Source of the DNA: Eledone cirrhosa
Lineage: Eukaryota
Length of the DNA: 64,000 nucleotides
Direction: 5' to 3'
Assembly: GCA_964016885.1 (NCBI GenBank)
Contig: OZ024742.1
Coordinates: forward strand, 289,726,001 to 289,790,000
A program made the translations under genes and the position numbers. The notes beneath the pieces were generated by a model. The model had not been told where the DNA came from and did no database searches. It saw nothing but the letters and a program-made list of their open reading frames with translations. The first letter of the stretch is position 1, and the number at the start of each line of letters is the position of its first letter. Positions 7,598 to 62,608 of this stretch are shown piece after piece.

Positions 7598-7744
7598 AAC
7601 ATGGGTTATAAAGGCCATACAAAACTGAGAAAGCGGTCAAGAAGCCATAAACCACCTAAGCCGAAAAAACAAGTCAAGCTAAACAGGTCAGACAAAATAA
7701 ATGACATATTCATATATAAATATATATATACATATATATATAGT

Positions 7745-7775
<31 letters not shown>

Positions 7776-7890
7776 GAATATGTCATTTATTTTGTCTGAC
7801 CTGTTTAGCTTGACTTGTTTTTTTGGCTTAGGTGGTTTATGGCTTCTTGACCGCCTTCTCAGTTTTGTATGGCCTTTATAACCTATGTTT
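7598..7890. repeat. Inverted repeat (~120-bp arms) around a TA tract
   Basis: 7598-7717 is the reverse complement of ~7773-7890. Confidence 0.8.
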
Positions 7891-22019: not shown

Positions 22020-22732
22020 TAAAGAATTAGTATATCTAGTAACATATATATACACAGATGCATACTTATGCTAGCAAATATATAGGGTTTTGTCTTAGTA
22101 ACTTTGTGGTTCAATGCATGGGGATGCAGAACAATAATATGAGACGTAAAATAAGAAAATTATAAAATTAACTTACTTACTAAAATAATTTTCTTATTTT
22201 ACGTCTCTCATATTATTGTTCTGCATCCCCATGCATTGAACCACAAAGTTACTAAGACAAAACCTATATATTTGCTAGCATAAGTATGCATCTGTGTATA
22301 TATATGTTACTAGATATACTAATTCTTTATAATTATCTCCAAATTATTTTGTCGAGCAAAAATTGGCCAAAACTGCTACTATAGTAACGGTCCGGCTGCT
22401 GTCTTCTTAACAAACCACTCTTCACTGATTGACCTCCATGTCACGTGACTGATTCTTTTGAATTTGCCACCGACGCAGTAGGCAGTGATTTTTTCAATGG
22501 CTTGGAATTTAGTCCACGCTTTGCTTTTTTCCATCCACTGAATTATTTTTGTATAAGTTCCCTGTGCCCACGTATTGCCTGGAAACTTAGCTGAGAATAG
22601 ACTTCCCTGATGACGAAAGGCTTCTCCGTACGTTTTTTAGGAAACTATGCTTATTCCCTTTCAGAAACTAATTAGTTGGAGTGAAATTTTAGTAAGTTAA
22701 TTTTATAATTTTCTTATTTTACGTCTCTCATA
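22020..22732 (+). mobile_element. HHR-bearing element: 520-nt monomer preceded by a ~150-bp inverted arm
   Basis: Terminal direct repeat 22186/22706; palindrome 22020-22330; flanked by TA microsatellites. Confidence 0.75.
22601..22682 (+). ncRNA. Type-I hammerhead ribozyme with long stem II loop
   Basis: acttcc CTGATGA c-gaaagg...cctttc-a GAAA ctaatta GTT ggagt. Confidence 0.72.
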
Positions 22733-25736: not shown

Positions 25737-25895
25737 ATAGGAAAATGTTCAAGACCCCGACGGCAGAACTCAAGCCATTTTGACGGATATTTCTGGGCAG
25801 CTATTTCAGTCCAGAAATAGCCGTCGGGGTCTTGAGTATTGAGTACTCCGGTGCGTTATGGTCCACCTGGTTCCTTACCACACTTCCTTCGTTAT
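25737..25895 (+). mobile_element. Fold-back family copy, internally deleted (cf. 36923 and 54709)
   Basis: aagaccccgacggc...gccgtcggggtctt followed by gagtattgagtac...ccttcgttat. Confidence 0.7.
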
Positions 25896-36065: not shown

Positions 36066-36791
36066 CTGGGACGACATGATAAATTCCGACCTCACACGCT
36101 TACACCTCTCCAAGACAATGTCACTGGACCGAGACCTTTGGCGGTACTCAGTAATAGAGAAGACCCGCCTTACCTAAATACAAAGTAAAAACCTACTACA
36201 GTCAGTAGGCATCTCTATCAAAACACACCCCCGTCCCACCACCTCCACCCCATCCACACCGCCCCTTTCAATGTAAAGTTATGTTGGTCCCACAACATCC
36301 AGGCCGAAACAAATGAGATCGTGTAGGTGTCACGAAAAAAACACACAGTCCACGCTGTAAATGTGGCCGTGTAGGCAACACGGTAAAAACCTCCTAGCCC
36401 CACACTGTAAATGTGGTTGGTGTTAGGAAGGGCATCCAGCTGTAGAAAACCCGCCAGACAGTCCACGCTGTAATGTGGCCGTGTAGGCAACACGGTAAAA
36501 ACCTCCCAGCCCCACACTGTAAATGTGGTTGGTGTTAGGAAGGGCATCCAGCTGTAGAAAACCCGCCAGACAGTCCACGCTGTAATGTGGCCGTGTAGGC
36601 AACACGGTAAAAACCTCCCAGCCCCACACTGTAAATGTGGTTGGTGTTAGGAAGGGCATCCAGCTGTAGAAAACCCGCCAGACAGTCCTATGCGAGCAAG
36701 ACAACCACTCTTGCCTCAAGTGGGAAAACCCCCGTCCAAACCCATGCAAGCGTGGAACACGGACGCTAAACTCGATGATGATGATGATGAT
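36066..36791 (+). mobile_element. RTE 3' fragment with a ~112-bp triplication in the 3' UTR
   Basis: cagtccacgctgtaa...ccgccaga starts at 36346, 36459 and 36571. Confidence 0.9.
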
Positions 36792-36806
36792 TATATATAT
36801 ATATAT

Positions 36807-36872
<66 letters not shown>

Positions 36873-36887
36873 ATATATTATATATAT

Positions 36888-36921
<34 letters not shown>

Positions 36922-36922
36922 T

Positions 36923-37100
36923 ATAGGAACCAGTAAGACCCCGACAGCTGAGCTCAAGCCGTTTCGACGGCTAATTCGAAACGGCTTGAGCTCAGCTGTC
37001 GGGGTCTTACTGGTTCCTATTACCCACTCTACTACCTCAAGTATTGAGTACTTTGGTGCGTTATGGTCCACCTGGTTCCTTACCACATTTCCTTCGTTAT
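36923..37100 (+). mobile_element. Fold-back element containing the 3' half of an HHR
   Basis: Perfect ~45-bp arms; GAAA cggcttgagctcagct GTC ggggtc. Confidence 0.7.
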
Positions 37101-37242
37101 ATATATTATATATATATATAATATATATATATATATATTATATATATATATAATATATATATATATATTATATATATATATAATATATATATATATATAA
37201 TATATATATATATTATATATATATATAATATATATATATTAT

Positions 37243-37337
<95 letters not shown>

Positions 37338-37575: not shown

Positions 37576-37860
37576 TCCTTCAGAAGACCGGACAAATCAA
37601 ATCAGACAACACTCGCCTCCTACGTTTGGGACCTCAAAAGGAACTCCACCCCCTTCACGCTTAAATAGAAAATACTCCAGAAAGCGCGCTCTTACAACGG
37701 AGGACACAAGGGCTGCGACCTTTGTATTTCAGAGAGCTACGAAATTTTATTAGCCAAGGGCCCGCTACTGAACAAACTCTCTGAACACTGCCCGAACTGC
37801 ATGCACAAGAACTTTGCAACTTTCAAACACTTTAAGCCAGTGTTAAAGCCCGATGGCTAA
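37576..37860 (+). pseudogene. Penelope-like element GIY-YIG endonuclease C-terminal remnant
   Basis: SFRRPDKSNQTTLASYVWDLKRNSTPFTLK*KILQKARSYNGGHKGCDLCISESYEILLAKGPLLNKLSEHCPNCMHKNF (the stop falls at the W of the KWKI motif). Confidence 0.7.
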
Positions 37861-44086: not shown

Positions 44087-44286
44087 NNNNNNNNNNNNNN
44101 NNNNNNNNNNNNNNNNNNNNNNNNNNNNNNNNNNNNNNNNNNNNNNNNNNNNNNNNNNNNNNNNNNNNNNNNNNNNNNNNNNNNNNNNNNNNNNNNNNNN
44201 NNNNNNNNNNNNNNNNNNNNNNNNNNNNNNNNNNNNNNNNNNNNNNNNNNNNNNNNNNNNNNNNNNNNNNNNNNNNNNNNNNNNNN
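44087..44286. other. Assembly gap (200 N)
   Basis: Run of N. Confidence 1.
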
Positions 44287-52796: not shown

Positions 52797-53070
52797 GAGT
52801 GTGTGTGAGCATGTAAAATATTCCATTTTGGTATTTTCAGTAATTTGTTAAATTTATTTGATTTATTTTGTTGTGTTCCATATAGGTAATTAAGTAATGT
52901 ATATATTATTTGTGCGTGTGTGTATATATATATATATACACACACACACACATAAATAATAAATACATTACTTAATTACATATATGGAACACAACAAAAT
53001 AAATCAAATAAATTTAACAAATTACTGAAAATACCAAAGTGGAATATTTTACATGCTCACACACACACAT
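52797..53070. repeat. Inverted repeat (~110-bp arms)
   Basis: gagcatgtaaaatattcca...taagtaatgta pairs with tacattactta...tggaatattttacatgctc. Confidence 0.85.
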
Positions 53071-54708: not shown

Positions 54709-54713
<5 letters not shown>

Positions 54714-54905
54714 AACGAGTAGGACCCCGACGGCTGAGCTCAAGCCGTTTCGACGGCTAATTCTAGTCCAGAATTAGCCGTCGAAACGGCTTGAGCTCAG
54801 CCGCCGGGGTCCTACTCGTTCCTATTACCCACTCTACTACCCTAAGTATTGAGTACTTTGGTGCGTTATGGTCCACCTGGTTCCTTACCACATTTCCTTC
54901 GTTAT
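54709..54905 (+). mobile_element. Fold-back element with HHR 3' half (same family as 36923)
   Basis: ~55-bp near-perfect hairpin plus the shared tail gtattgagtactttggtgcgttatggtccacctgg. Confidence 0.72.
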
Positions 54906-62382: not shown

Positions 62383-62608
62383 ATATATATATACATATAT
62401 ATACATAATTATATATACATATATATATATATACATGTTGCCAATAAGAAACACACGCACCAGTTGCTTTCACTTCAATTTATTATAATAAATTTATAAA
62501 TTTCCGGTTGGTTGGTTGGTGCCTCTCCTTTGTTCTGTCCTACGCCATCAACAAGATAGCGTAGGACAGAACAAAGGAGAGGCACAAAAACAAAGAAAGG
62601 AATCCCCA

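What the first reader, a model, noticed from the sequence alone, without database searches (positions are those of the whole stretch)
36923..37100. Fold-backs apparently primed on the ribozyme's own stem II
At 54709-54825 the hairpin apex is gacggctaattctagtccagaattagccgtc, followed by GAAA, stem III (acggc...gccg), the triplet position and ggggtc: an HHR 3' half. Where CUGANGA should be there is instead an inverted copy of that 3' half. 36923 and 25737 show the same fold-back with different apices. Inference: cDNA snaps back at stem II and self-primes, generating PLE-type inverted ends and deleting the catalytic 5' strand.
Basis: partly seen in the sequence, partly recalled or inferred. Interest (0 to 1): 0.7.

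Follow-up and report, generated by a model that had tools for sequence, protein, structure and literature searches.

The report
Two-armed Penelope stubs record RNA ends
These hairpins are short stubs of a Penelope-like jumping gene, present in at least 35,000 copies, that were likely made by copying one RNA into both ends of a cut TA repeat, and the points where their arms stop likely mark the RNA's capped start and, less often, the cut made by its own ribozyme.

Summary
The three hairpins are real. They are the 3' ends of a Hydra-clade Penelope-like element (at least 34,705 copies; one copy has an intact 719-aa ORF) inserted in (TA)n. They do carry a hammerhead 3' half, but un-inverted copies have no CUGANGA. 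The core lies about 60 nt upstream and reads UUGANAA (U3-A8; 75 of 100 listed). Snap-back priming fails as the general route: the inverted arm reaches further 5' than the direct arm in 31 of 76 short and 17 of 30 long insertions, and also at 36923. Best reading (0.7): two cDNAs are primed at two fixed sites 79 nt apart, run off the RNA's 5' end and are joined head to head. Most arms stop at a TTAGT motif with an excess of untemplated G (46 of 100, against 18 of 100 one base away), likely a capped start. About 2% stop at the predicted ribozyme cut (743, against 135 and 44 at controls); one such insertion carries the U6 3' end on both arms. The scan noted two-armed insertions before in other families of this genome; the cap, cut and U6 evidence did not appear in the 16 notes seen.

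The parts
36792..36925 (.). (TA)n target, left of copy A
36926..36977 (-). Copy A, inverted short arm ('B arm'): element positions -133 to -82; its 3' end is the fixed site End B, joined to (TA)n
36976..37098 (+). Copy A, direct arm with tail ('A arm'): positions -123 to End A. It shares a 2-nt TC overlap with the B arm and is 10 nt shorter at its 5' end than the B arm
36978..37005 (+). Hammerhead 3' half in copy A: GAAA, stem III, GUC (predicted cut after 37000), stem I 3' strand GGGGT. The parent subfamily (L115/L207) has the UUGAGAA core
37020..37098 (+). 79-nt one-sided tail between End B and End A; starts with a small bulged hairpin shape
37098..37334 (.). (TA)n target, right of copy A
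54712..54764 (-). Copy B, inverted arm (-134 to End B)
54764..54903 (+). Copy B, direct arm (-140 to End A). A at 54765 is the inferred transcription start; the triplet is mutated to GCC at 54803-54805. Its un-inverted relatives include C3/A8-core copies (L100/L211) and U3/A8-core copies (L213/L218)
25740..25796 (-). Copy C, inverted arm (older subfamily)
25807..25894 (+). Copy C, direct arm: starts at the AGTCC motif, lacks 23 nt between the two GCCGTC repeats (deletion ends at the predicted cut) and lacks a second stretch near End B

Best explanation
The hairpins are short insertions of a Hydra-clade Penelope-like retrotransposon, likely formed when both ends of a cut TA repeat each primed a DNA copy on the element's RNA, at two fixed internal sites, and the two copies ran off the RNA's 5' end and were joined head to head. 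Shown: the parent element and its ORF; two fixed 3' ends (End A and End B, 79 nt apart); head-to-head arms whose 5' limits vary independently; junctions with microhomology or filler; a sharp wall of arm ends at positions -138 to -144; excess G before A(-139); excess ends at the predicted hammerhead cut (-98). Inferred: the endonuclease cuts both strands of (TA)n; the two ends are reverse-transcription starts; A(-139) in TTAGT/TCAGT is a capped Pol II start inside the stem II loop, so such RNAs lack the catalytic strand; a minority of RNAs were cut by the U3-A8 hammerhead; host end-joining fuses the two cDNAs; both arms usually copy the same RNA. Not resolved: how the roughly 20% of arms that pass -145, and full-length copies, get their template.
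For: Parent: direct pLTR-ORF-pLTR in L136 and an inverted arm plus long arm in L131; intact 719-aa ORF in L115. Fixed ends: 91 of 96 tail-anchored copies go from End A into (TA)n; 76 of 96 have an adjacent inverted arm, 70 of these ending at -79. Independence of arms: B further 5' in 31, A further in 23, within 2 nt in 22 of 76 (about 28 vs 21 after correcting by eye some six copies with internal deletions). In long insertions B is longer in 17, A in 11, equal in 2, unresolved in 4 of 34, often by over 1 kb. Wall: arms holding the 18-mer from -138 number 8,178 with non-A at -139, 12,121 with A-139 but non-T at -140 and at least 17,444 with T-140, of which 45 of the first 100 continue as template. 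Cap mark: letter before A-139 is G46 C48 A6 of 100; before G-138 it is G18 of 100; Fisher p=3.5e-5. 28 of 41 fetched G cases are not explained by the partner arm's last base (25 by eye). Untemplated 5' G is attributed to the cap in PMC3287187 (passage). Cut: 743 junction matches at -98 vs 135 at -96 and 44 at -101. Of 30 inspected, 21 are true junctions, 11 of them with both arms ending at or within a base of the cut. U6 3' end joined at the cut on both arms of one insertion, which fits 5'-OH ligation by RtcB (PMC6789731 abstract). Same source: 47 of 59 arm pairs share the subfamily tag vs 9 expected at random. Precedent: a purified Penelope-like protein cuts and extends both strands and starts at two internal sites that bound the tail (PMC11167929).
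Against: All of it is inference from inserted DNA; no RNA or enzyme data. Palindrome centres can be deleted after insertion, which could make some B arms look longer and blur the 5' limits. Shared variants in the two arms fit snap-back or gene conversion equally well. 9 of 30 inspected cut-site hits are intact copies with an extra G or a lost C, the G4 run absorbs nearby junctions (L230, L233), and the control hits were not inspected. The U6 case is one insertion. In the 96-copy sample alone no cut-site peak was clear. 13-16 of 41 G cases can come from the partner arm, and arm ends spread over -133 to -144 rather than one base. The hammerhead stems show no compensatory change within the family; 23 of 100 cores are C3/A8, an unpaired combination, and the one such copy folded did not give the hammerhead fold. 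None of the three window copies ends at the cut. One apex (that of 54709) recurs in at least about 40 copies.
Confidence: 0.7

Rival explanations
1. Snap-back self-priming (first reader; also proposed for Penelope palindromes in PMC3846280): one cDNA from End A folds back and copies itself to End B, where the endonuclease resolves it.
For: Arms nearly always share subfamily and private variants; some junctions carry short templated fold-back fillers (L166, L231, L238, L245); 22 of 76 short copies have arms within 2 nt of each other.
Against: It requires the B arm to lie within the A arm. B is longer in 31 of 76 short and 17 of 30 resolved long insertions, by more than 1 kb in young copies such as L258 and L265. 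Untemplated G occurs on both arm types, and fillers separate the arms. It may still shape a few junction bases.
Confidence: 0.12
2. Twin priming is right, but the wall at -139 is a reverse-transcriptase stall or a processing site, not a capped transcription start.
For: Ends spread over about 10 nt; many carry extra T rather than G; there is no transcript evidence.
Against: G is enriched only before A-139, not before G-138 or T-140. The site lies in a loop beyond the stem rather than at its entry. TTAGT/TCAGT resembles an initiator (recalled), and an Inr-like motif is noted in rotifer pLTRs.
Confidence: 0.1
3. Longer palindromic insertions later collapsed by centre deletion and were homogenised by gene conversion, so the apices record decay rather than insertion.
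For: Deletions between GCCGTC repeats recur (window copy C, L103, L123), and palindromes are unstable (general knowledge).
Against: It would not give a wall at one motif, base-specific G, untemplated A/T between two arms that both end at the predicted scissile bond, or kilobase palindromes that persist.
Confidence: 0.05
4. The 200-bp hairpin is itself a non-autonomous unit (MITE-, SINE- or retrozyme-like) that is copied whole.
For: About 40 copies are 98-100% identical to 54709-54905, apex included.
Against: In the unselected sample nearly every apex differs; all subfamilies show the same form; there are no terminal inverted repeats and no tandem units. The recurring apex is a 1-nt microhomology join (5 of 100 rows).
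Confidence: 0.03

Closest known systems
Hydra clade of C-terminal EN+ Penelope-like elements (Craig et al. 2021, PMC8557442; passages and supplement look-ups read)
   Same: RWx, DKT, CxCx5C linker, CxxC and CxH motifs; (TA)n target; inverted 5'-truncated copy; one-sided tail; hammerhead about 100 nt from the 3' end.
   Different: A different family from Hydra-1_Obim (by eye). Tail is 79 nt, not 30-40. The core is U3-A8 with a 37-nt stem II loop that Rfam misses. Most copies are 200-bp two-armed stubs. The paper ascribes the tail to endonuclease resolution.
Poseidon element PAc of Anolis (Frangieh et al. 2024, PMC11167929; parts 1-2 of 4 read, supplements not read)
   Same: Two internal reverse-transcription starts that bound the tail; both strands cut and extended; AT-rich target.
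   Different: In vitro only, with starts inside the ORF, and the parts read give no account of inverted arms. It found no reads ending at the hammerhead cut; here genomic copies end there in excess.
U3-A8 minimal hammerheads of Schistosoma mansoni Cercyon elements (Cervera and de la Pena 2014, PMC4209133; part 1 of 4 read)
   Same: U3-A8 core, longer helix II, 4-5 bp helix I, unpaired base at the 5' end of stem II, pairs of motifs on opposite strands.
   Different: Here stem III is a stable 5-bp hairpin with a palindromic loop, and a likely transcription start splits the ribozyme.
Adineta vaga Penelope palindromes (Arkhipova et al. 2013, PMC3846280; passages read)
   Same: Head-to-head inverted pLTRs with palindromic junctions and an optional tail.
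   Different: Explained there by self-priming on an antisense template; the arm-length data here argue for two primers on sense RNA.
U6/LINE-1 chimeras made by RtcB (Moldovan et al. 2019, PMC6789731; abstract and outline read)
   Same: U6 3' end joined to a retroelement RNA 5' end and then retrotransposed.
   Different: Here the join is at a predicted ribozyme cut and is present on both arms; one case only.
L1 twin priming (recalled; not read here)
   Same: Two primers on one RNA give an inversion joined by microhomology.
   Different: In L1 the second primer anneals at a variable internal site; here both starts are fixed and the arms overlap.

Membership tests
EN+ Penelope-like elements | Single ORF with RT and C-terminal GIY-YIG endonuclease | tested here: met
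   719-aa ORF with YRDD, FLD and AYIG motifs. Pfam and PDB sequence searches of the whole ORF gave no hit; the C-terminal piece gave GIY-YIG at E=0.069. Rests on motifs and on likeness by eye to Hydra proteins.
EN+ Penelope-like elements | pLTRs in tandem or inverted arrangement with a one-sided tail | tested here: met
   L136 direct, L131 inverted, 79-nt tail.
Hydra clade | RWK-type motif and DKT in place of DKG | tested here: met
   RWR at 37, DKT at 117; definition.
Hydra clade | CxCx5C linker; CxxC and CxH near the conserved E and N; no CX2-5CxxC finger | tested here: met
   CNCPDRSIC at 572, CNLCSEE at 670, CKH at 698; CX2-5CxxC pattern absent.
Hydra clade | Insertion into (TA)n | tested here: met
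   91 of 96 End A junctions.
Hydra clade | Placement inside the clade in an RT tree | not tested
   No reference proteins were held as sequences.
Type I hammerhead ribozyme | Canonical CUGANGA core | tested here: not met
   0 of 100 listed cores (75 U3/A8, 23 C3/A8, 2 U3/G8); none in three long 3' regions.
Type I hammerhead ribozyme (U3-A8 variant) | UUGANAA, GAAA, NUH with three stems; N7 free | tested here: met
   All four bases at N7; 92.5% of cells paired; three-way fold is the minimum-energy fold in 3 of 4 copies folded.
Type I hammerhead ribozyme (U3-A8 variant) | Compensatory changes in stems | tested here: inconclusive
   0 pairs changed on both sides among 23 distinct, closely related rows.
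Type I hammerhead ribozyme (U3-A8 variant) | Self-cleavage at NUH | not testable with these tools
   Indirect only: excess of copy ends at the predicted bond and one U6 join.
Animal non-LTR retrozymes | Non-coding tandem units, each with a whole hammerhead | tested here: not met
   The parent is coding; the stubs are head-to-head and lack the core.

The most novel reading that the evidence does not exclude
This family is a fossil record, tens of thousands of events deep, of Penelope-like integration: a dimeric enzyme primes both ends of a double-strand cut at two fixed sites of one RNA, and the abortive products map the capped start and the in vivo ribozyme cut to the base. The cut leaves a 5'-OH that the host ligase joins (to U6 by accident, to the element's own 3' end as the normal route to circular, full-length template). 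Inverted pLTRs and tails of all Penelope-like elements would arise this way, not by self-priming.
Probability: 0.4. Interest if true: 0.75.

Novelty: new variant of a known kind. Interest (0 to 1): 0.52.

Why it matters
How Penelope-like elements make inverted ends and one-sided tails, and whether their hammerheads cut in vivo, are named as open questions in PMC8557442 and PMC11167929. This family gives counts that separate twin priming from self-priming, and base-level predictions for the RNA's start, its cut site and both priming sites. An intact 719-aa ORF is on hand, so the model can be tested directly in vitro.

Tried and rejected
Rfam on the window and on seven parent loci: no hammerhead. 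Canonical CTGANGA upstream of the 3' half: 33 genome-wide pattern hits, mostly chance letters in variable apices or junctions with another repeat. Type II or III topology with the core downstream: no core seen downstream. Covariation within the family: none. No RNA holder was listed. DNA contigs of runs X1 and X2 hold the family but are too short to span a hairpin. A jump from the inferred start onto a cut 3' end (a 40-nt duplication): 0 cases in the 312 loci held. Pfam and PDB searches of the ORF: no significant hit. Sequence look-up in earlier scan findings: nothing. Assembly artefact: rejected because ends are fixed, junctions vary and arms carry independent point changes. Literature searches listed no paper proposing twin priming for Penelope-like elements; most hits were seen as listings only, the library lacks most subscription papers, and the supplements of PMC11167929 and of the bioRxiv preprint were not seen.

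Full report
Observation. The three hairpins exist as described. At 36923-37020 the arms are 46 bp and perfect; at 54709-54825 they are 56 bp with one mismatch. The copy at 25737 is older and has two deletions in the right arm. All share an 80-nt tail and lie in (TA)n. An exact tail 30-mer has 34,705 matches in the 3.0-Gb genome, control 0. Positions below count back from the last base of the tail (End A = 0).

Parent element. A 27-mer from un-inverted copies has 1,492 hits. Loci around such hits hold a Penelope-like ORF: pLTR-ORF-pLTR in L136, a 1.15-kb inverted arm plus a long arm in L131, and an intact 719-aa ORF in L115 that starts about 90 nt behind End A. It has RWR, DKT, CxCx5C, CxxC..E and CxH, and lacks the CX2-5CxxC finger. 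These are the marks given for the Hydra clade, along with the (TA)n target (PMC8557442, passages). By eye it is not Hydra-1_Obim (supplement look-up). Pfam and PDB do not detect it. The window stubs are the last 125-140 nt of the pLTR in sense, preceded by an inverted piece.

The ribozyme. Un-inverted copies instead read ACCCC-YTGANAA-G, a stem, a 37-nt loop, then C-GAAA, stem III, GTC and GGGGT. The core pattern has 6,043 hits; the first 100 are 75 U3/A8, 23 C3/A8, 2 U3/G8 and 0 C3/G8, with all four bases at N7 (counted by hand). The U3-A8 variant is known from Schistosoma Cercyon elements (PMC4209133, part 1). Three of four copies folded give the three-way hammerhead as their minimum-energy structure; the C3/A8 copy does not. 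92.5% of cells pair, but no pair changes on both sides. Rfam misses it. Cleavage itself was not tested.

Two fixed ends, two independent arms. I fetched 80 regions around tail hits from the first 100 listed and found 96 tail-anchored copies (one double-tail insertion is counted twice). 91 pass from End A into (TA)n. 76 have an adjacent inverted arm, and 70 of those end at -79. The inverted (B) arm reaches further 5' than the direct (A) arm in 31, less far in 23, and within 2 nt in 22; by eye about six are mis-scored because of internal deletions, giving about 28 vs 21. Among 34 long insertions, B is longer in 17, A in 11, equal in 2 and unresolved in 4 (read by eye from BLAST blocks). A fold-back on the element's own cDNA cannot give a B arm longer than A, and B cannot be the first strand because it lacks the tail. 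At 36923 the B arm has 10 nt that the A arm lacks. Arms share the subfamily tag in 47 of 59 pairs, against 9 at random, so both usually come from one source; this does not separate the models. A purified Poseidon protein cuts and extends both strands and starts at two internal sites that bound the tail (PMC11167929), which supplies the mechanism. Self-priming is the published reading of such palindromes (PMC3846280, passages).

Why the arms stop where they do. Both arm types pile up at -133 to -143. Genome-wide, among arms with the exact 18-mer from -138, 8,178 lose the template at -139, 12,121 have A-139 but not T-140 (some are TCAGT subfamilies), and at least 17,444 have T-140, of which 45 of the first 100 continue. 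So roughly four in five stop within 7 nt. The letter before A-139 is G in 46, C in 48 and A in 6 of 100; before G-138 it is G in 18 of 100; before T-140 it is G in 2 of 23 non-T rows (p=3.5e-5 and 7e-4). I fetched 41 of the 46 G cases: 28 are not explained by the partner's last base by script, 25 by eye, four of these ambiguous. An untemplated 5' G is ascribed to copying of the cap in L1 and SVA (PMC3287187, passages). I infer a capped Pol II start at the A of TTAGT/TCAGT. It lies in the stem II loop, 43 nt downstream of U3, which is why the stubs lack the catalytic strand. No RNA run was listed, so this is untested.

Ends at the predicted cut. A arms whose template match breaks exactly at GUC|GGGG number 743, against 135 two bases downstream and 44 three bases upstream (66 after scaling for the narrower pattern). 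Of the 30 loci returned, 11 have both arms ending at or within a base of the cut, mostly with one or two untemplated A/T between, 5 start from (TA)n at the cut, 4 join another partner there, 1 carries U6, and 9 are intact copies with an extra G or a lost C. The controls were not inspected. In L245 both arms carry the 3' end of U6 joined at the cut; it is the only U6 junction that a genome-wide pattern found in this part of the element. RtcB joins U6 to 5'-OH ends (PMC6789731, abstract), the end a hammerhead leaves. These events are about 2% of copies, and none of the three window copies is one, though the deletion in 25737 ends at the cut.

Earlier scan notes. My reading was written down before I saw them. 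Notes on other families of this genome describe two-armed insertions with two fixed starts, and twin bulged hairpins behind the ends. Here such a hairpin folds 4 nt behind End A in three of four read-through copies (a plain stem in the fourth), and the same shape can be drawn about 6 nt behind End B, though it is the preferred fold there in only some copies.

Verdict. The value lies in the mechanism that the stubs record. Interest 0.52.

Noticed in passing
L245:1383-1600 (G000:C1, near 148,857,800): Two-armed insertion with the U6 snRNA 3' end joined at the predicted hammerhead cut on both arms, plus a short templated duplication at the apex.
   Followed up: yes
window 37588-37860: Remnant of a different Hydra-like element: endonuclease C-terminus 37% identical to the L115 ORF, with an internal stop, 250 nt from copy A.
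   Followed up: partly
L031, L045, L052, upstream of the match: The 3' end of this family is joined to another repeat that carries a CTGANGA-type hammerhead half (same sense in L052, antisense in L031 and L045), suggesting template switching or pairing between families.
   Followed up: no
L109:572-742: Head-to-head insertion in which both arms carry the full tail (End A on both sides), an exception to the A+B rule.
   Followed up: no
L117 (+ copy), L130: The two arms carry tags of different subfamilies, so some insertions may use two RNA molecules.
   Followed up: partly
L020, flank: A family tail joined at about the cut site to sequence that looks like a mariner-type transposase gene (recalled likeness).
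   Followed up: no
window 36345-36688: 112-bp tandem repeat, 3.1 copies, 99% matches, just left of copy A.
   Followed up: no
window 22087-22264, 52872-52993, 7657-7831, 62517-62587: Other long hairpins unrelated to this family, picked up as weak miRNA-model matches.
   Followed up: no
window 44087-44286: 200-base run of N.
   Followed up: no
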